Source: Saprospira grandis
GTDB lineage: Bacteria; Bacteroidota; Bacteroidia; Chitinophagales; Saprospiraceae
DNA length: 64,000 nt
Reading direction: 5' to 3'
NCBI RefSeq assembly: GCF_027594745.1
Contig: NZ_CP110854.1
Span: 1,180,241-1,244,240, forward strand
Each line of letters starts with the position of its first letter. The stretch's first letter is position 1. A model generated the notes under the pieces. It worked only from the letters and a program-made list of their open reading frames with translations, did no database searches and was not told the origin of the DNA. Position numbers and translations under genes: made by a program. Below are positions 35,869 to 55,272 of this stretch, piece after piece.

Positions 35869-38800
35869 ATGATGATGCGTTATTTCCTATTCTTGCTCCT
35901 GCTTTGGAGTAGTGGGTCCCTTTTGGCCCAAACAGAAGATATTGAATTGGTGGTGAGCCAAGGCCACCACAGTAATGTCCGAGCCCTTGCCTTTTCGGAA
36001 GATGGGCGTTTTTTGGCCACGGCTGGCGATGACCGCAGCCTGCGCATTTGGTCGATGCGGCTACAGCAAGAATATAAGGTCCTTTGGGGACATAAGGCGG
36101 CTATTACGGATGTGGGCTTTTCTAAAGATGGGCAGTTTCTGGCCTCTGTGGGCAGTCGGCTGCTCTGTATATGGTCTATGCCTGAAGGCAAACTTTTGCA
36201 TCAGATGGAGGTAGATGCCCTGAGCAAACGCCTGCAATTTTCGGAGACTAAGGCAGGACATGTTATGGCCCGACTGCCCGAGGGCATGGCCTGGGTAGAT
36301 TTAAAAACAGGGGCCATAGACTACAGCCTAAAGCCCTTTATGCGAAATTGGAGCAACTGGATTTTGGGACAAAAAACAGCCCGTGTGATTATTCCAGAAC
36401 GGCCCGATAGCATTTGGGCCTATAGCCTCGAGGGCCAAAGAAAACAACTATTTGTAGGTAAAGGAAGCTATTATAAGCTGCTGCTTTCGCCCAATGAGGA
36501 TTATCTGGCAGCCTATTCGGGCAGCCGTCTGGCCGTAGATGTTTGGGACTATAAGAGCGGAAAATTGATTGGCAGTATTGAGGGGCTTGGCCCACTACAA
36601 GACTTTTGTTTTGATATGGCGGGGCAGCGGCTCTGGATTATGGACCTACATGCCGAATGCAGGGTCTATAGCTGCCCTAAACTCCAAATGGAGCTAATTG
36701 TCAATAAAAAGAGCTGGGGGCAAGAAGGCCTTGGCCAAGGCGATTTGGTACAGGTAAATATTGGTCAGCAGATTCGCCCCAGCCCCAATGGGCAGTTTAT
36801 GGGGCTGGCCATTACTCGCACCGAAGTGAACCGCAAGACGAGCAAGATGAATGACCTCAGAGGAGTCCAACTAGTCGATGCCCAAACGGGCAAAGAAAGG
36901 GGCCTATTTAAGGGGCATTTTAAGTGGATTACCCAGCTAGGTATCTCGCCCAAAGGCGATAAACTCCTCTCCATCAATATGGGCAAAACCCGAGGGCTGC
37001 GCTCTTGGACCATCCAAAAAGGAGAAATTGAACGCTATATCCATAGCTCCCAAAGCCTTAGCCAAAGCCAAGATAAAAAACAACTGGCCCTACTCGAGTT
37101 TCAGGAAAAAGCTCAGCCAGAACTAACGGTCTATCAGCTCCCTAGTTTTAGAAAGCTAGCCAAGAAGAAGCTCGACAATTGCAGCGCCTTTGCCCTAAGT
37201 GGCGATGGTAAAAAAATAGCGGCCCTACAAGTAGATGTTAATCTCAAAAACCCTTTAAACAACCGCTTTTATTACTCTATATGGAAGCTACCCAACTACA
37301 AACTAGAACAAGAAATTGAGATCGAATCTAAGGAATCTGCCCTACCCATATTTAAAAGTCTATTGCTTGATTCTGCTGGCGATTACCTTCTTGCTGCCGC
37401 CCAAAACCAAGCCTACAGCCTAGAGCTAAGCAGCCAAAAACGCATCCGATTTGCCCTGCCTAGCTCGGCTACTTATTGGCGAATGCTCTGCCTGCACCCA
37501 CAACAGCCCGCCCTACTCTTTGCGGTCACGGAGGTGGTCTATAATCAGGAGGAAAAAAGAGTGGAGGAGCTCAGCAAGCTGCTGCTCTACAACTATAAAA
37601 CAGGCGAACTCATCGAGGAAGTAAGCAGCCCCAAAGAGGGGGTTATCCAAAGCGCAACCTTTAGCCCAGATGGTCAATACCTACTCACGGGGCAAACGGC
37701 CTATCAGGCGGTCATCAACTTTGATGTGCTGCTCTGGGATTGGCCCCAAAAACAACTGCTCTGCCAATTTAAAGGGCATAATGGCGGCATCAATGACCTG
37801 GCCTTTGACCCCCTAGGCAAAAAGGCCTATAGCTGCTCAGAAGATGGATTGATTAAGGCCTGGGATATAGAAAAATGTGCCCTAGACGCTTCTTTTATTG
37901 GCTATAATGAATTGGATTACCTCATTATCTCGCCCGAAAATTACTATAAAACTAGCCGAAGCAATACCGCTGGCCTTGGCTTTCGATATGCCGGCGACCT
38001 CTATACCTACGATCAGTTTGACCTCCGATTTAACCGCCCAGATAAGGTCCTCGCCCCCTTTAGCGATGCCCCTCGCAAACTAAATATCTATACCAAGGCC
38101 TGGAAAAAAAGAGTGCGGCGACTCGGCTTTACCGAGGAACAACTAGAGCAAGAGCTAGACCTGCCCCAACTTCAAATTGTCAATCAATTGCAGCTCCCCA
38201 TTTTTGTAGAAGATAGCCTCATCCATTTCCAAATTACCGCCTTTGACCAGCAACAGGCCCTAAAAAAACTGCGCATCTTTGTCAATGGCGTGCCCTACCC
38301 CAATGCAGAAGGCATCGAGCTAAACAACAGCCCTGGCGATAGCCTGCGCCAAGAACTAAGTATTCCACTAGGCCAAGGCCCCAATAAAATTCAACTCTCG
38401 GTGGTCAATGCCGCAGGCCTAGAAAGTGCCAAACAGAGCTTTCAACTGGCCTACCAACCCAAAGAGAAACAAACTAGTCAACTCTACTTTTTGGGCCTTG
38501 GAGTCAGTGAGTTTAAAGATAGTAGCCGCAACCTAAAGTACCCCCAAAAAGATGCCCATGACCTGGCCCAAACCTTAGCCGAAGCCCAAGAAAAAGGACA
38601 GTTCCAGCAACTTTTGCTCGACCCTAATATGCCCATAGAACAACTGCAAAAAAGCGCTAGAGACTTTATGGAGCAGGCCAAAATCAATGACCAAATTGTC
38701 TTTTATATCTCTTCGCATGGCCTGCTAGACGATAGCCTGAACTACTACCTAGCCCTCCCCAATAGCCAATTTGATCAGCCCCAAAATGGAAGCTGGGCCT

Positions 38801-39303
38801 ATGATAATATAGAGCAATTACTGGATGGGCTACCCTGCCGCAACCGCCTGCTCCTGCTCGATGCCTGCCATTCTGGGGAAGTGGATAAGGAGGTAGAAAC
38901 CGAGAAGAAATCGGTCAGCAGCTTTGCCCAAAACATACTCAAAAGAAGCAAGTCGGGCAGTACCCTGATCCGCCCCAAAACGGGACTCAACAACTCTTTT
39001 GCCTATATGAAGGCCCTTTTTTCGGACCTAGAACAGCAGAGCGGGGTCACGGTTATTTCTGCCGCTGGCGGCTTCGAACTGGCCTATGAATCGGATGAAT
39101 GGGGCAACGGCCTCTTTACCTACGCCCTTTTGGAGGGCATCAAAAGCAAGAAAGCCGACCTCAATAATGATGGCCAAATTCCTATCCTCGAGCTGCGAGA
39201 CTTCCTCAGCCTCAGGGTGCTAGAGCTCAGTCAGGGCCAACAGCAGCCCACCGCCCGCCAATCCAATGTTTTCAATAACTTTATCCTTTACCGTTATGAT
39301 TAG
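35869..39303 (+). CDS. Secreted WD40-repeat protein with C-terminal caspase-like (peptidase C14) domain
   Basis: Signal peptide MMMRYFLFLLLLWSSGSLLAQ. WD40 units (e.g. GHHSNVRALAFSEDGRFLATAGDDRSLRIWS; GHKAAITDVGFSKDGQFLASVGSRLLCIWS; GHNGGINDLAFDPLGKKAYSCSEDGLIKAWD). The C-terminus carries the caspase His/Cys dyad context YISSHGLLDD ... LLLLDACHSGE. Confidence 0.8.
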   Translation: MMMRYFLFLLLLWSSGSLLAQTEDIELVVSQGHHSNVRALAFSEDGRFLATAGDDRSLRIWSMRLQQEYKVLWGHKAAITDVGFSKDGQFLASVGSRLLCIWSMPEGKLLHQMEVDALSKRLQFSETKAGHVMARLPEGMAWVDLKTGAIDYSLKPFMRNWSNWILGQKTARVIIPERPDSIWAYSLEGQRKQLFVGKGSYYKLLLSPNEDYLAAYSGSRLAVDVWDYKSGKLIGSIEGLGPLQDFCFDMAGQRLWIMDLHAECRVYSCPKLQMELIVNKKSWGQEGLGQGDLVQVNIGQQIRPSPNGQFMGLAITRTEVNRKTSKMNDLRGVQLVDAQTGKERGLFKGHFKWITQLGISPKGDKLLSINMGKTRGLRSWTIQKGEIERYIHSSQSLSQSQDKKQLALLEFQEKAQPELTVYQLPSFRKLAKKKLDNCSAFALSGDGKKIAALQVDVNLKNPLNNRFYYSIWKLPNYKLEQEIEIESKESALPIFKSLLLDSAGDYLLAAAQNQAYSLELSSQKRIRFALPSSATYWRMLCLHPQQPALLFAVTEVVYNQEEKRVEELSKLLLYNYKTGELIEEVSSPKEGVIQSATFSPDGQYLLTGQTAYQAVINFDVLLWDWPQKQLLCQFKGHNGGINDLAFDPLGKKAYSCSEDGLIKAWDIEKCALDASFIGYNELDYLIISPENYYKTSRSNTAGLGFRYAGDLYTYDQFDLRFNRPDKVLAPFSDAPRKLNIYTKAWKKRVRRLGFTEEQLEQELDLPQLQIVNQLQLPIFVEDSLIHFQITAFDQQQALKKLRIFVNGVPYPNAEGIELNNSPGDSLRQELSIPLGQGPNKIQLSVVNAAGLESAKQSFQLAYQPKEKQTSQLYFLGLGVSEFKDSSRNLKYPQKDAHDLAQTLAEAQEKGQFQQLLLDPNMPIEQLQKSARDFMEQAKINDQIVFYISSHGLLDDSLNYYLALPNSQFDQPQNGSWAYDNIEQLLDGLPCRNRLLLLDACHSGEVDKEVETEKKSVSSFAQNILKRSKSGSTLIRPKTGLNNSFAYMKALFSDLEQQSGVTVISAAGGFELAYESDEWGNGLFTYALLEGIKSKKADLNNDGQIPILELRDFLSLRVLELSQGQQQPTARQSNVFNNFILYRYD

Positions 39304-39304
39304 T

Positions 39305-39433
39305 TTCTTTTCTTTTGGGGCCTCCGCCTCCCTTCGGTCGTCGGCGCTACGTTCCGGGGCTCGCAAGTCTGCTCGGCCCTTCGGCGGCTTGGCCGCCTCG
39401 GTCTGCGGCTGCGCCGCCCCCCTCCACATCGCT
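39305..39433 (+). repeat. GC-rich interspersed repeat, copy 13 (forward)
   Basis: Starts 2 bp after the stop: TTTTGGGGCCTCCGCCTCCCTTCGGTCGTCGGCGCTACGTTCCGGGGCTCGCAAGTCTGCTCGGCCCTTCGGCGG...ACATCGCTAGGCC. Confidence 0.85.
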
Positions 39434-39481
39434 AGGCCAAAACCAAAAACTGCCCTAGGGGCAGCCAAAGAGGGCCTTTCG

Positions 39482-40457
39482 GCCCTCCCACTAAATGCGC
39501 CTAATAGGGCCCAACAGGCTGGCAGGTCGCCCCTTATTTTGGGCCTTTTACTGCTGTTGTTCTTGGGCCTAGTTCCCGCCTGCCAGCCTGCTCAATCAGC
39601 AGAGGCAGAACCCGCCCCCCTCCTAGCAGATAGTAGCCAAACAGACAGTTTGCCCCCAAGCCAACTCCCCCCCGCTATTCGCCAAGGGCCACAGCCTCGG
39701 CTAGCCCAGTTTAGCGACAGTCTGACGACCCTAAGTATTGGGGGGCATAAGGTGGATATACAACTCCCTAGGGCCGCCTTTAAGGGCAGTATCATTATTT
39801 TGCCTGGCTATAATTTCCCGAAGGAGGATGCCTGCCAGAAAGCTCCCCTCTTTTGCCAGACCTTTTTGGAGGCGGGTTATCTACTCATTATGCCTGAAAT
39901 GGGACGCTCCTTATATAGTAGTCAGTATTTTCCAGAAACCCAGGCTCGTTACAAGCGCTATCCCGACCAAAACTGGGTCCTAGATAGTCTGCTCCCTCAT
40001 TTGCAGCTAGAATATGGGCTATTAGTAGATGGGCAAGACAATTTCTTAGTGGGCATTTCTACTGGGGGCCGAGGGGCTGCTCTTTTGGCCTTGGCTGCGC
40101 CCGAGCGTTGGACCGCAGTGGCCAGCCTGTCTGGAGACTTTGACCAAAGCCAGATACCCAATGATGGACTGATGCGCAACTTTTATGGACCTTACAAACA
40201 ATTTAGTCAGCGCTGGAAAATGGTGGATAATGTTATTGCTCGCATAGACGACTGGCAAACGCCTATCTTTATTGGGCATGGCGGAGCCGATAAGGTGGTC
40301 CCCCCCCGCCCAGTCTAAACAACTCTTTGATAGCTTACAAAGTCGTTTAGATCAGGAGCTACTCTATTACTCTGCGCCCCCCAAGGCCGAGCACAACTAT
40401 GCTTATTGGGAAGCTGAGGCCAAAAATATACTGGCCTTTTTTCAGTCATTGCCTTAG
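39482..40457 (+). pseudogene. Alpha/beta-hydrolase (putative esterase family) lipoprotein gene with a +1 frameshift in a C8 tract and no ATG start
   Basis: Lipobox-type signal LLLLLFLGLVPAC. IIILPGYNFPKED, nucleophile-elbow context VGISTGGRGAALLAL and IFIGHGGADKVVP. The reading frame stops at 40318 just after CCCCCCCC (40300-40307). The C-terminal continuation AQSKQLFDSLQSRLDQELLYYSAPPKAEHNYAYWEAEAKNILAFF is in the +1 frame (ORF 40272..40457). No in-frame ATG lies between the upstream repeat and the signal peptide. Confidence 0.6.
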
Positions 40458-40631
40458 CGGGCTGTTTTTTGTCCTGATTTATACTTTGCCCCCTAGTTGC
40501 TTGCAGCGGCTAGGGGGCTTTGTTGTTTGGGCTATGCGCTAGCTGAGACTATTTAAAATATGCTGCATTTCTTTTTTATCGCCTAGGGACAAGCCGAGAC
40601 TGTTTAAAATTTTGTGTTTCTCCTTTTGCTG

Positions 40632-40797
40632 CCTAGGGACAAGCCCCTAGGCTAGCTTTTTCAGACAGCCCTCTAAAGAGGGCCTTTGGATAAGGTTCTT
40701 CTCTGCGATAATAACTAAACAAGGCCTTGTATACCAACAGTTGAGGCCCTCAAAGAGGGCTGACTCCATTGGATTAGCCTAGGGGCTTGTCCCTAGG
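40632..40797. mobile_element. MITE-like 166-bp element with perfect 20-bp terminal inverted repeats
   Basis: CCTAGGGACAAGCCCCTAGG at 40632-40651 and its exact reverse complement CCTAGGGGCTTGTCCCTAGG at 40778-40797. Internal second inverted pair CAGCCCTCTAAAGAGGGCC / GGCCCTCAAAGAGGGCTG. Sits between TTTGCTG and CGATTATTGG, which are nearly contiguous (TTTGCTGAGGCGACTATTGG) in a paralogous sequence at 44611-44650. Confidence 0.65.
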
Positions 40798-40868
40798 CGA
40801 TTATTGGCTGAATCCTAACAAGCTAAAGGCCCAAATTTTATTCGGATACACAAAATCCTGAATAGTCC

Positions 40869-40917
40869 CGACAAGCCCCTAGGCTAGCTTTTCGGACAGC
40901 CCTCTGCGAGGGCCTTT
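40869..40917. repeat. Solo fragment of the MITE-like element (left end without the outer CCTAGG)
   Basis: GACAAGCCCCTAGGCTAGCTTTTCGGACAGCCCTCTGCGAGGGCCTTT matches 40639-40688 with few changes. Another partial TIR GCCTAGGGACAAGCC lies at 40581-40595. Confidence 0.6.
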
Positions 40918-40946
40918 ATTTTATTCCAACATACAAAATATTGAGG

Positions 40947-41358
40947 TTCCCCCTCGGAAGGGGTTACTCTAGCCCTCAAGAGGGGTTACTCTACCCCTCG
41001 AAAGGGGTTAATCTACCCCTCAAGAGGGGTTACTCTACCCCTCGAAAGGGGTTACCCTACCCCTCGAAAGGGGTTACCCTACCCCTCGAAAGGGGTTACT
41101 CTACCCCTCGAAAGGGGGTGCTCTACCCATCGAAAGGGGGTGCTCTACCCATCGAGAGGGGGTGCTTTACCCATCGAGAGGGGGTGCTCTACCCATCGGG
41201 AGGGGGTGCTCTACCCATCGGGAGGGGGTGCTCTACCCATCGGGAGGGGGTGCTTTACCCATCGAGAGGGGGTGCTTTACCCATCGAGAGGGGGTGCTTT
41301 ACCCATCGAGAGGGGGTGCTTTACCCATCGAGAGGGGGGTGCTTTACCCATCGGAAGG
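40947..41358. repeat. 22-bp tandem repeat array, about 19 copies, two sub-families, each unit a short hairpin
   Basis: About 7 units CTCTACCCCTCGAAAGGGGTTA (hairpin CCCCT-CGAA-AGGGG), then about 12 units CTCTACCCATCGAGAGGGGGTG with the variable positions drifting along the array. No spacers. Confidence 0.9.
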
Positions 41359-41706
41359 AAAATACTAGCAATAAAGAGGGGTAGATGGATTTAAATTAAA
41401 GGCAATATAAAAACAGTTATTGACTCCTTTATATCACTAAAGCTGAGCAACTTTTACAACCTTCTGACTGATAGCAATGCGCAGGCCCTCAGCTAGAAAT
41501 AGTCCTTAAAACAACTGCTAATAAGATCCAAAACTCTATAAAACACAAAAAAATAGCCTATTAAAGTATTTTTTATTAGTTATAACTTGCATCTTAAAAT
41601 TATTTACCCTATGTTTATAACATAGACAACATAAGAGCACATTATTTTTACTAAAGAGCTCTAGTTGTTAGACATCTAATTATTAATCAAATAAATACCT
41701 AGTACT

Positions 41707-42216
41707 ATGTCTAGAAGAAACATGATTAGCATTGAATTGCTTGCGGCTACGGTCCAGCAAGTTCAGAGCGCATTTGAGACTATTGAGCAGTTGCTTGATG
41801 GTCATGTTGTAAACATCAGCCCGGAGGACCGTCAGCGTTATGGGAGTGTAGATGAGCAGGCCAAACTATTTATCTTTAAGGCGCATGATTTTTATCGGGC
41901 CAAGGGGCAGTTGCTTCCGAGCTACTTTGATACTGTGGAGTATGAAAAAGACTTTGAGGGGCGTAAACTATTTGAGCGTTTTGAACAAAAGGCGGTAGAA
42001 TTACAGGAAAAAATTCGCGACACTCGGACGCTTTTGGATTATGATACCCTTCAGTATTCTTACAGTCTATATCGCCATCTAAAGAACATGAGCCAAGAAG
42101 ACATTCCGGGCATTGATTTTTGGCTAGAGGAGATGTCTCAGTTTTTCAAGCGTAGCACTAACAATGGTTTGGAAGAACAGAGCAATGATGAGGCGGAGCC
42201 GCCTATTGTTGACTAA
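41707..42216 (+). CDS. Hypothetical protein (169 aa, acidic C-terminus), preceded by a roughly 300-bp AT-rich region
   Basis: Clean ORF MSRRNMISIELLAATVQQVQ... with no recognisable domain. Upstream 41390-41706 is roughly 28-30% GC. Confidence 0.55.
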   Translation: MSRRNMISIELLAATVQQVQSAFETIEQLLDGHVVNISPEDRQRYGSVDEQAKLFIFKAHDFYRAKGQLLPSYFDTVEYEKDFEGRKLFERFEQKAVELQEKIRDTRTLLDYDTLQYSYSLYRHLKNMSQEDIPGIDFWLEEMSQFFKRSTNNGLEEQSNDEAEPPIVD

Positions 42217-54495: not shown

Positions 54496-54576
54496 CATCT
54501 GCCTTTTTCTAGCTTAAGTTTCTTCTTTGGCGGCTGGCTTGTTTTGGGCCGATGGGCTGAAGCCCATTTGGAAGAC

Positions 54577-55080
54577 GCTATTCTGCAACTGCAAAACGAC
54601 ATCTTACAGTTGCGCTAAGCTATTCTGCAGATGCAAAACGGCATATTACAGTTGCGGCAAGCTATTCTGCAACTGCAAAACGGCATATTACAGTTGCGGC
54701 AAGCTATTCTGCAACTGCAAAACGGCATATTACAGTTGCGGCAAGCTATTCTGCAACTGCAAAACGGCATATTACAGTTGCGGCAAGCTATTCTGCAGAT
54801 GCAAAATGGCATATTCCATTTGGAGGACGCTATTCTGCAACTGCAAAACGGCACATTCCATTTGGAGGACGCTATTCTGCAACTGCAAAACGACACATTC
54901 CATTTGGAGGATGCTATTCTGAAACTGCAAAACGGCATATTCCATTTGGAGGACGCTATTCTGCAACTGCAAAACGACACATTCCATTTGGAGGATGCTA
55001 TTCTGCAACTGCAAAACGGCATATTCCATTTGGAGGACGCTATTCTGAAACTGCAAAACGGCATATTCCATTTGGAGGAT
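54577..55080. repeat. 42-bp tandem repeat array, exactly 12 units in two sub-families, each unit with an internal 7-bp-stem hairpin
   Basis: Units GCTATTCTGCAACTGCAAAACGGCATATTACAGTTGCGGCAA (stem GCAACTG/CAGTTGC) followed by units GCTATTCTGCAACTGCAAAACGGCACATTCCATTTGGAGGAC. Open in 5 of 6 frames, which is trivially frame-preserving because 42 = 14 codons. Confidence 0.9.
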
Positions 55081-55139
55081 GCTATTAGGAATTTGCGAAA
55101 ACGTAGCATCAAGACTTTGATGGGCTGTTCCAAAAATTC

Positions 55140-55272
55140 GTCCTACAGGCCCGAAGGGCCGCAGGCCTAGCGATGCGAAAGGGGGCTGCGCAGCCGCAGA
55201 CCAAGGCCGTCAGGCCGCAGGGCCGAGCAGACCTGCGAGCCCTGAAGCGTAGCGCCTGCAGCTTTGCTGCAG
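55140..55272 (-). repeat. GC-rich interspersed repeat, copy 18 (reverse)
   Basis: GGCCTAGCGATGCGAAAGGGGGCTGCGCAGCCGCAGACCAAGGCCGTCAGGCCGCAGGGCCGAGCAGACCTGCGAGCCCTGAAGCGTAGCGCCTGCAGCTTTGCTGCAGGAGGCCCCAAAACAAC. Confidence 0.85.

What the first reader, a model, noticed from the sequence alone, without database searches (positions are those of the whole stretch)
40947..41358. 19-copy 22-bp tandem array of hairpin units with two sub-families
Units CTCTACCCCTCGAAAGGGGTTA (about 7 copies) give way to CTCTACCCATCGAGAGGGGGTG (about 12 copies) with stepwise drift along the array. Every unit can fold as a short hairpin (CCCCU-CGAA-AGGGG). There are no spacers, so it is not a CRISPR array. The period is not a multiple of 3, and the overlapping ORFs (40941..41384 and others) are artefacts. 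Such arrays can act as iteron or binding-site arrays, slippage-prone contingency loci, or multi-hairpin RNAs.
Basis: seen in the sequence. Interest (0 to 1): 0.6.

Follow-up and report, generated by a model that had tools for sequence, protein, structure and literature searches.

The report
Strain-variable 22-bp minisatellite in Saprospira grandis
The 19-unit, 22-base tandem repeat is real, but it changes unit number and sequence between Saprospira grandis strains like an ordinary bacterial minisatellite, and nothing indicates that it encodes an RNA, a protein, a CRISPR array or a defined binding-site array.

Summary
The array is confirmed at window 40945-41358. It has 19 head-to-tail 22-bp units: 7 A-type, 1 transitional and 11 B-type, with stepwise drift along the array. 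The genome is Saprospira grandis.

The array lies between an esterase-like gene and a 169-aa gene of unknown function, about 230 bp upstream of a promoter-like block that is conserved in orthologues and paralogues. Every Saprospira relative retrieved has a 22-bp-phase array at this position, but the content differs:
- DSM 2844 has 13 mosaic units.
- Lewin-type genomes have 15 diverged units; one variant lacks exactly 4 of them.

In the Lewin-type lineage the array diverges at about the rate of third codon positions. Only A-type units form a hairpin better than shuffled sequence; B-type units do not. I found no Rfam family, no conserved ORF and no conserved structure. No copy of the unit occurs elsewhere in the DNA held.

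Best reading: a minisatellite (VNTR) seeded by a GC hairpin and remodelled by slippage or unequal recombination. Any role it has is as variable upstream DNA.

A paralogous gene also carries an upstream array of about 21.5-bp sub-period, so a cis-acting role remains possible.

Caveat: my genome and metagenome scans used a 23-bp spacing by mistake and are uninformative.

The parts
40945..41098 (.). A-type half of the array: 7 units (CTCTACCCCTCGAAAGGGGTTA and variants). Each has the hairpin ACCCCT-CRRR-AGGGGT.
   Evidence: Register listing. Hairpin better than shuffles. Significantly similar to unit 2 of the Lewin array (0 of 500 shuffles).
41099..41120 (.). Transitional unit with A-type stem and B-type linker: CTCTACCCCTCGAAAGGGGGTG.
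41121..41358 (.). B-type half: 11 units (CTYTACCCATCGRRAGGGGGTG). There are runs of identical neighbours, one +1 G in unit 18, and a truncated last unit.
   Evidence: Fold no better than shuffles. Local-duplication gradient.
40897..40925 (+). Terminator-like hairpin CAGCCCTCTGCGAGGGCC followed by a T-run, 20 bp before the array. Also present in DSM 2844.
40574..40886 (.). REPIN/MITE-like repeats, including the inverted pair of GCCTAGGGACAAGCCCCTAGGC at 40631-40652 and 40777-40798. Mostly absent from the DSM 2844 allele and absent from the Lewin allele.
   Evidence: Same element next to the paralogue's array in L055.
40488..40518 (+). Terminator-like hairpin of the upstream esterase-like gene. 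It is conserved in all strains and served as the alignment anchor.
41576..41621 (+). Conserved promoter/operator-like block: TTAGTTATAACTTGCAT ... TATGTTTATAAC. It contains the only Bacteroidetes-type promoter-like match in the intergenic region (TTG at 41587; TATGTTTA at 41610).
   Evidence: Columns invariant across orthologues and paralogues.
41707..42216 (+). Downstream gene: a 169-aa all-helical protein of unknown function (WBM75550.1), fast-evolving in its 5' two-thirds.

Best explanation
The array is a hypervariable intergenic minisatellite (VNTR) of Saprospira grandis. The ancestral unit is a 22-bp GC-rich hairpin (A-type).

Whole units are gained, lost and copied over one another by slipped-strand mispairing and unequal recombination. 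This explains two things: neighbouring units are the most alike, and a derived, hairpin-poor variant (B-type) was recently amplified to 11 copies in this strain.

It is not translated. It is probably not a functional RNA. Its unit sequence is not under detectable purifying selection.

If it does anything for the cell, it most likely acts as double-stranded DNA: a length-variable, roughly two-helical-turn-phased stretch about 230-640 bp upstream of the promoter of the 169-aa gene.

Shown: the structure, the polymorphism, the whole-unit indels and the near-neutral divergence. Inferred: the slippage mechanism and the absence, or weakness, of a sequence-specific function.
For: Array alleles differ although the spacer between array and gene is about 93% identical between window and DSM 2844 (324 of 348 aligned positions):
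- The window has 19 units, DSM 2844 has 13 mosaic units, and SRR28370020 has different terminal units.
- Short-read assemblies break inside the array.

The Lewin-type lineage has 15 units that are orthologous unit by unit in 4 distinct lineages. One variant (L051) is shorter by exactly 88 bp, or 4 units, with a hybrid junction unit.

Divergence in that lineage is near-neutral:
- Pairwise divergence is 7.3% in the array, 5.9% at third codon positions and 4-7% in other intergenic parts.
- The unit core is not more conserved than third codon positions: 8.6% versus 11.2% variable columns, p = 0.49.
- By contrast, the promoter-like block downstream is invariant even between paralogues.

The gradient of unit similarity along the array has r = 0.71, reached by 0 of 5000 permutations.

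B units have lost the hairpin (z about 0) yet are the most amplified.

There is no conserved ORF and no Rfam family.

The unit occurs only at this locus in all the Saprospira DNA held.

A second, unrelated 42-bp x 12.5 minisatellite with two sub-families lies in the same window, so such arrays are not rare in this genome.
Against: - A 22-bp-phase array is retained at this position in every Saprospira lineage retrieved.
- The paralogous gene (about 61-64% amino-acid identity) also has an upstream array of 43-bp period (21 + 22). Retention at two loci hints at selection for presence or phase.
- The three loop positions vary only between purines across 27 units.
- The linker varies more than the core (21.7% versus 8.6% variable columns, p = 0.001).
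- Both of the last two points could reflect weak constraint on a CCTC-RRR-AGG core.
- No expression or binding data exist.
- Whole genomes could not be scanned, because my scans were mis-specified.
Confidence: 0.55

Rival explanations
1. It is a cis-acting array of phased protein-binding sites (iteron-, centromere- or upstream-activating-like). A protein binds the CCTC-RRR-AGG core every 22 bp, about two helical turns, and builds a nucleoprotein structure upstream of the 169-aa gene's promoter. The binding protein could be the gene's own product.
For: - The strict 22-nt register holds over 15-19 units in all lineages, including highly diverged units.
- The paralogue has an array of about 21.5-bp sub-period at the same relative position.
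- The A unit is a 6-4-6 dyad.
- The core is less variable than the linker.
- The array type and the 5' two-thirds of the gene are inherited as one divergent haplotype block.
Against: - The unit sequence is not conserved between haplotypes.
- Similarity between paralogue and orthologue units is not above chance.
- Arm spacing changes between A and B units.
- The core evolves at about the rate of third codon positions.
- The 169-aa protein has no detectable DNA-binding family or fold.
- No rep or par genes were seen among the neighbours scanned.
- There is no match in plasmids or phages.
Confidence: 0.2
2. It is a head-to-tail reiterated cluster of a small REP-type palindromic element. The element is generated or mobilised by a REP-associated Y1 transposase (RAYT) and is related to the REPIN-like elements that flank it.
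For: - Tandemly reiterated REPs with stems of only 5-6 bp are described (PMC3733652).
- Nearly every hairpin is preceded by CTAC, which reads GTAG on the other strand.
- REPIN-like inverted pairs lie directly upstream and around the paralogue.
- A Y1_Tnp gene sits next to the paralogue in this strain.
Against: - No dispersed copy of the unit occurs in the 64-kb window or in any other Saprospira locus held.
- Read on its own strand, GTAG lies 3' of the hairpin, whereas I recall the tag lying 5' of the hairpin in canonical REPs; PMC3733652 says only that it is at one end.
- B units are not palindromic.
- The neighbouring REPIN-like repeat has an unrelated sequence.
Confidence: 0.12
3. It is a contingency locus. 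Frequent changes in unit number tune or switch expression of the fast-evolving 169-aa gene within populations.
For: - Unit number and content differ between close strains.
- The downstream gene is unusually divergent. Codon positions 1+2 differ by 10% and position 3 by 20.6% from Lewin, while the flanking YebC gene differs by 2.1% at position 3.
Against: - The array lies about 230 bp upstream of the promoter-like block, not in a promoter spacer or an ORF.
- Changes come in 22-bp steps, which keep helical phase.
- The Lewin-type allele has been stable at 15 units across four lineages.
- No within-population data are available.
Confidence: 0.08
4. It is a transcribed multi-hairpin RNA: a protein sponge or a structured leader.
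For: - A units form stable hairpins with purine-rich tetraloops.
- The length, about 410 nt with 19 motifs, resembles CsrB/RsmZ-type sponges (from my own knowledge).
- The Lewin-type array folds better than shuffles (z -5.95).
Against: - The whole array folds only marginally better than shuffles: z -1.8 on the + strand and -1.1 on the - strand.
- B units and the paralogous array have z about 0.
- There is no promoter-like site upstream, and a terminator-like hairpin lies 20 bp before the array.
- There is no Rfam match.
- No loop motif is shared by all units; GGA occurs in only 5 of 19.
- Substitutions between orthologous units are not clearly compensatory.
Confidence: 0.05

Closest known systems
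Bacterial intergenic minisatellites / VNTR loci (as used in MLVA typing; mycobacterial MIRU-type loci)
   Same: Head-to-tail units of tens of bp in an intergenic region. Unit number and unit variants differ between strains. Indels come in whole units. Neighbouring units are the most similar.
   Different: The units derive from a GC hairpin. The array persists, in diverged form and in the same 22-nt phase, in all sampled Saprospira lineages and upstream of a paralogous gene.
Tandemly reiterated REP clusters (GTAG-tagged REPs; Di Nocera et al. 2013, PMC3733652) and REPIN/RAYT systems
   Same: A short GC-rich stem-loop unit with an adjacent CTAC/GTAG. An intergenic, clustered arrangement. REPIN-like elements and a Y1 transposase gene in the same genome.
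   Different: No dispersed copies were found in the DNA available. All units are in one orientation with a fixed 8-nt linker. More than half the units have lost the palindrome.
Plasmid iterons and sopC/parC-type centromere arrays
   Same: Direct repeats phased at about two helical turns (22 bp). A short dyad lies inside each unit.
   Different: The locus is chromosomal with no rep or par gene. The unit sequence is not conserved between strains and diverges at a near-neutral rate. Nothing similar occurs in the plasmid or phage collections.
CRISPR arrays
   Same: Regularly spaced, partly palindromic repeats.
   Different: There are no spacers at all, the period is only 22 bp, and no cas genes are nearby.
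CsrB/RsmZ-type multi-hairpin sponge RNAs
   Same: About 400 nt carrying about 19 repeated stem-loop motifs.
   Different: There is no promoter or terminator pair, no conserved loop motif, no conserved structure in relatives and no Rfam match.

Membership tests
Bacterial minisatellite / VNTR | Head-to-tail repeat units without unique spacers | tested here: met
   TRF period 22, 17.9 copies, 94% matches. Register listing.
Bacterial minisatellite / VNTR | Unit number and/or unit composition differ between strains of the species | tested here: met
   19 units (window), 13 (DSM 2844), 15 (Lewin-type) and 11 (L051). Terminal units differ in SRR28370020.
Bacterial minisatellite / VNTR | Length changes occur in whole-unit steps | tested here: met
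   L051 is shorter by exactly 88 bp (4 x 22) with a hybrid junction unit. One 1-bp insertion is the only off-register event in the window.
REP / REP cluster (GTAG- or CGTC-tagged) | Unit is a stable palindromic stem-loop | tested here: inconclusive
   A units: yes (DNA z -3.2). B units, 11 of 19: no (z about 0).
REP / REP cluster (GTAG- or CGTC-tagged) | Conserved GTAG/CGTC tag at one end of the hairpin | tested here: inconclusive
   CTAC precedes the hairpin in nearly all units. This places GTAG 3' of the hairpin on the other strand. Unit boundaries cannot be fixed inside a tandem array.
REP / REP cluster (GTAG- or CGTC-tagged) | Many copies dispersed over the genome | tested here: not met
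   Zero copies outside the array in the 64-kb window and in the other Saprospira loci held. The whole genome could not be scanned, so this holds only for the sample.
CRISPR array | Repeats separated by unique spacers of similar length | tested here: not met
   Units abut one another; there is no unique sequence between them.
CRISPR array | cas genes nearby | tested here: not met
   Pfam scan of nine ORFs spanning 33.6-46.9 kb shows no Cas domains.
Iteron / centromere-like binding-site array | Direct repeats phased at an integral number of helical turns | tested here: met
   Strict 22-nt register over 15-19 units in all alleles.
Iteron / centromere-like binding-site array | Adjacent gene for the cognate DNA-binding (Rep/Par) protein | tested here: inconclusive
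   The neighbours are an esterase-like protein, an all-helical 169-aa protein with no family or fold match, and YebC. None is a recognisable Rep or Par protein, but the 169-aa protein's function is unknown.
Iteron / centromere-like binding-site array | Unit (binding-site) sequence conserved among relatives | tested here: not met
   Units differ between haplotypes. Only the A unit versus Lewin unit 2 is significantly similar. Divergence is about neutral.
Multi-hairpin sponge RNA (CsrB/RsmZ type) | Own promoter and terminator; a transcript exists | not testable with these tools
   Only consensus scans were possible. They show no promoter-like site before the array and a terminator-like hairpin just upstream. 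No expression data are available.
Multi-hairpin sponge RNA (CsrB/RsmZ type) | Conserved loop motif and conserved hairpins in relatives | tested here: not met
   GGA occurs in the loop of only 5 of 19 units. B units and the paralogous array are not structured. No Rfam hit.
Phase-variable contingency locus | Repeat tract lies in a promoter spacer or reading frame, so that unit changes switch expression | tested here: not met
   The array ends 229 bp before the promoter-like TTG at 41587, and the ORFs over it are artefacts.
Phase-variable contingency locus | Length heterogeneity within one population | not testable with these tools
   This needs raw long reads of one culture. Only assembled contigs were available.

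The most novel reading that the evidence does not exclude
The array and the gene behind it form one co-evolving module. A phased repeat platform, 22 bp here and 21+22 bp at the paralogue, is bound by the product of the adjacent fast-evolving helical-protein gene or by a partner of it. Array type and the protein's N-terminal two-thirds are exchanged together between strains as alternative alleles, giving a previously undescribed repeat-plus-protein specificity system in Saprospira.
Probability: 0.08. Interest if true: 0.6.

Novelty: new member of a known kind. Interest (0 to 1): 0.25.

Why it matters
As it stands, the array is mainly of practical value. It is a good strain-typing (VNTR) marker for Saprospira grandis. 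It is also a place where short-read assemblies break; in SRR23239775 one assembly contig ends inside the array.

It documents how a bacterial minisatellite can persist across lineages while its unit sequence turns over. One haplotype is being homogenised and expanded. The other is frozen and decaying at a near-neutral rate.

It would matter more if the co-occurrence of about 22-bp-phase arrays upstream of both paralogues of an uncharacterised, fast-evolving protein family turned out to reflect a binding platform.

Tried and rejected
**My error in the collection scans**
- The scans of genome contigs, viral contigs and metagenome contigs used 9 N between hairpins. That is a 23-bp period, and the pattern does not even match the window's own array.
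- They returned only unrelated 23-bp mini-arrays in other phyla.
- The corrected 22-bp pattern could be run only on viral contigs. It gave one unrelated two-copy hit.

**Searches that found nothing**
- Translating the array and searching 5.8 billion proteins, to find arrays miscalled as genes: no hit.
- blastn of the array against plasmids and phages: no match.
- Rfam at gathering and at permissive thresholds: only sub-threshold chance hits to eukaryotic miRNA and snoRNA models.

**The downstream protein**
- A structure was predicted with high confidence (pLDDT 91.6).
- It has no Pfam, PDB-sequence or PDB-fold match.
- It therefore gave no clue to a DNA- or RNA-binding role.

**Comparisons that were inconclusive**
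- One distant homologue's contig (L057) has no upstream array, but this is a single data point.
- Homology between the paralogue's array and this array could not be shown at the sequence level.
- A search for compensatory changes in the Lewin-type orthologous units gave one symmetric C-G to T-A change (unit 6) and one non-compensatory double change (unit 10). I judged this inconclusive.
- A viral-contig search for the 169-aa protein was negative.

Full report
**Observation**

The array exists as described. Tandem Repeats Finder reports 40959-41353, period 22, 17.9 copies, 94% matches, score 487.

Written in 22-nt register from 40945, the array has 19 units:
- Seven are A-type: CTCTACCCCTCGAAAGGGGTTA and variants with loops CGAA, CAAG or CGGA.
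- One is transitional, with the A stem and the B linker (41099-41120).
- Eleven are B-type: CT[C/T]TACCCATCG[A/G][A/G]AGGGGGTG. One of these has an extra G, and the last is truncated.

The core CCCNTCNNNAGGGG occurs 18 times in the window, all inside the array, against 0.11 expected. Unit dissimilarity rises with distance along the array (r = 0.71; 0 of 5000 permutations), so the 'stepwise drift' is real.

The hairpin claim holds only in part:
- The A unit folds as a 6-bp stem with a tetraloop, better than shuffles (RNA -8.8 kcal/mol, z -2.0; DNA -5.5 kcal/mol, z -3.2).
- B units fold no better than shuffles (z about 0).
- The whole array as RNA is only marginally more stable than shuffles (z -1.8 on the + strand, -1.1 on the - strand), and its best fold is not a row of unit hairpins.

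**Context**

The window comes from Saprospira grandis. The downstream 169-aa protein is WBM75550.1, from a 4,250,550-bp contig.

The array lies in a 1.39-kb intergenic region. Upstream is an esterase-like gene (39266-40318, +). Downstream are the 169-aa gene (41707-42216, +) and then YebC.

Upstream of the array are three features:
- The conserved terminator-like hairpin of the esterase-like gene (40488-40518).
- REPIN/MITE-like repeats, including the inverted pair of GCCTAGGGACAAGCCCCTAGGC at 40631 and 40777.
- A second terminator-like hairpin with a T-run (40897-40925), 20 bp before the first unit.

The only Bacteroidetes-type promoter-like match in the region is at 41587 (TTG-N20-TATGTTTA). 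It sits in a block, TTAGTTATAACTTGCAT...TTTATAAC, that is invariant between orthologues and paralogues. The array therefore lies about 230-640 bp upstream of the likely promoter.

No tRNA or Rfam family overlaps the array.

**The array is not coding**

The 147-aa ORF over the array exists only because the units contain no stop codon in any + frame. Three results show it is an artefact:
- Its translation has no homologue among 5.8 billion proteins.
- It has no NCBIfam match and only weak PHROGs matches to families of unknown function.
- The orthologous arrays of the Lewin type contain stops, and their longest ORF is 41 aa.

**Comparison with relatives**

Using the 169-aa protein and its cluster members, I retrieved the orthologous intergenic region from several sources:
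- S. grandis Lewin (L033).
- DSM 2844 (L038).
- Saprospira sp. CCB-QB6 (L042).
- Several metagenome or read-archive contigs.

All carry a 22-nt-phase array at the same place, but with different content.
- DSM 2844 is the closest relative here: the spacer between array and gene is about 93% identical (324 of 348 aligned positions) and the downstream protein belongs to the window protein's 90%-identity cluster. It has 13 units that mix CCCCTC and CCCATC stems with loops AAG, GGA, GGG and AGG.
- A third allele (SRR28370020) has yet other terminal units.
- Short-read contigs of the window's own strain end inside the array.

The Lewin-type genomes have 15 much more diverged units in perfect 22-nt register, with a 44-bp super-period. 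These units are orthologous one to one in four distinct lineages. The distance from the terminator anchor to the ATG is exactly 684 nt in nine loci. L051 is 596 nt, which is 4 units fewer, and it has a hybrid junction unit.

Only the A unit is significantly similar to a Lewin unit (unit 2; 0 of 500 shuffles). The other cross-comparisons are not above chance.

**Selection**

Among the four Lewin-type lineages, the array diverges at about the neutral rate:
- The array differs by 7.3% on average, against 5.9% at third codon positions of the adjacent gene and 4-7% in the rest of the intergenic region.
- The unit core (positions 1-14) has 8.6% variable columns, against 11.2% at third codon positions (p = 0.49).
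- The 8-nt linker has 21.7% variable columns, which is higher and probably reflects exchange between units.
- So there is no detectable purifying selection on unit sequence, whereas the promoter-like block is invariant.

Substitutions in the cores are not clearly compensatory. There is one symmetric C-G to T-A change and one non-compensatory double change.

**What argues for more than junk**

- The array is retained in every lineage sampled.
- The paralogous gene (about 61-64% amino-acid identity) also has an upstream array. In Lewin (L055 3177-3444) it has period 43 (21 + 22) and 6.1 copies, directly after the same REPIN-like element. The window strain's paralogue contig starts inside that array.
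- The three loop positions vary only among purines in 27 units.
- The region from the array to about two-thirds into the 169-aa gene behaves as one divergent haplotype block:
  - The window's esterase-like and YebC genes are Lewin-like: 96.8% DNA identity for the first, and 2.1% difference at third codon positions for the second.
  - The array and the gene's 5' part are DSM 2844-like and very different from Lewin: 20.6% at third positions and 10% at first and second positions, concentrated in blocks.

The paralogous array has no above-chance RNA structure (z 0.02). What the arrays share is position and a period of about two helical turns, not a fold.

**Conclusion**

The best-supported reading is an ordinary, if well-developed, bacterial minisatellite.
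- It was seeded by a GC hairpin unit.
- It is remodelled in whole-unit steps by slippage and unequal recombination.
- In one haplotype (window, DSM 2844) it is homogenised and expanding. In the other (Lewin-type) it is frozen and decaying.

I put 0.55 on this reading, with no sequence-specific function. I put about 0.2 on a DNA-level binding or architectural role upstream of the 169-aa gene. The REP-cluster, contingency and RNA readings get smaller shares.

It is not a CRISPR array and not coding. There is no support for a replication-iteron reading: plasmids and phages give no match, and there is no rep or par neighbour.

The closest described things are VNTR loci and tandemly reiterated small REPs (PMC3733652). 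The REP filing fails on dispersed copies in the DNA I could examine.

**Limits**

- By my own mistake, the scans of the genome and metagenome collections used a 23-bp spacing. The genome-wide and cross-taxon distribution of the unit therefore remains untested.
- The corrected pattern was run only on viral contigs and found nothing relevant.
- No transcript, binding or within-population data were available.

Noticed in passing
window 54564-55086: A second minisatellite: 42 bp x 12.5 copies, 91% matches, again with two sub-families (...ACAGTTGCGGCAAG... versus ...CCATTTGGAGGACG...). Stop-free ORFs cover it on both strands (54631-55170 + and 54615-55133 -), and GC-rich repeats (GGGGCCTCCCGCCTTCGGCGGGCG) lie upstream. 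Whether it codes for a 14-aa-repeat protein was not tested.
   Followed up: partly
window 40574-40886; L055 2547-3097 and 4670-5190; L035 1301-1708: A REPIN/MITE-like repeat family built from inverted pairs of GCCTAGGGACAAGCCCCTAGGC plus GCCCTCT..AGAGGGC hairpins. It has 7 copies of the 15-mer around the paralogous gene in strain Lewin. A Y1 transposase (PF01797, RAYT-like) gene lies next to the paralogue in the window strain.
   Followed up: partly
L055 3177-3444 (S. grandis Lewin); L035 1-68: The paralogue of the 169-aa gene has its own upstream tandem array: period 43 (21 + 22), 6.1 copies, 85% matches. It starts directly after the REPIN-like element. It has no above-chance RNA structure and no significant unit similarity to the window array.
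   Followed up: yes
window about 40535-42000: A hypervariable island with mosaic ancestry. The flanking esterase-like and YebC genes are Lewin-like (96.8% identity; 2.1% difference at third codon positions). The array, the spacer and the 5' two-thirds of the 169-aa gene are DSM 2844-like and strongly divergent from Lewin, with 31, 7, 25, 5 and 1 mismatches per successive 102-nt block of the gene.
   Followed up: partly
window 41707-42216: The 169-aa protein belongs to an uncharacterised family of about 160-aa proteins (443 cluster representatives with E <= 0.001). A confident all-helical model (pLDDT 91.6; one 55-residue helix) has no Pfam, PDB-sequence or PDB-fold match.
   Followed up: partly
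window 41576-41621: The block TTAGTTATAACTTGCAT...TATGTTTATAAC is invariant across orthologues and paralogues. It holds two GTTATAAC palindromes and a Bacteroidetes-type promoter-like match, so it is probably the promoter and operator of this gene family.
   Followed up: partly
window 39266-40457: The esterase-like ORF ends at 40318, about 137 nt earlier than in Lewin and DSM 2844 (386-387 aa). The remainder is readable in ORF 40272-40457. This is a frameshift, either a pseudogene or an assembly error.
   Followed up: no
L004, L006, L010, L013, L015, L016 (Kiritimatiellia MAG JAZRWB01); L008 145-235 (Halieaceae): My mis-specified 23-bp pattern found short arrays of similar GC hairpins in other phyla. 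A three-unit (T/G)ACCCCTCGGGAGGGGT(A/C) module recurs at six or more loci of one Kiritimatiellia MAG; four of the six share one flank and two share another, so it looks like a dispersed element. A 4-5-unit array lies in a Halieaceae genome.
   Followed up: no
window 35869-39303; L033 1-2125: A 1144-aa protein combines WD40 propellers with a C-terminal caspase (Peptidase_C14) domain. In strain Lewin, a major-vault-protein 'shoulder' domain protein lies a few kb upstream.
   Followed up: no
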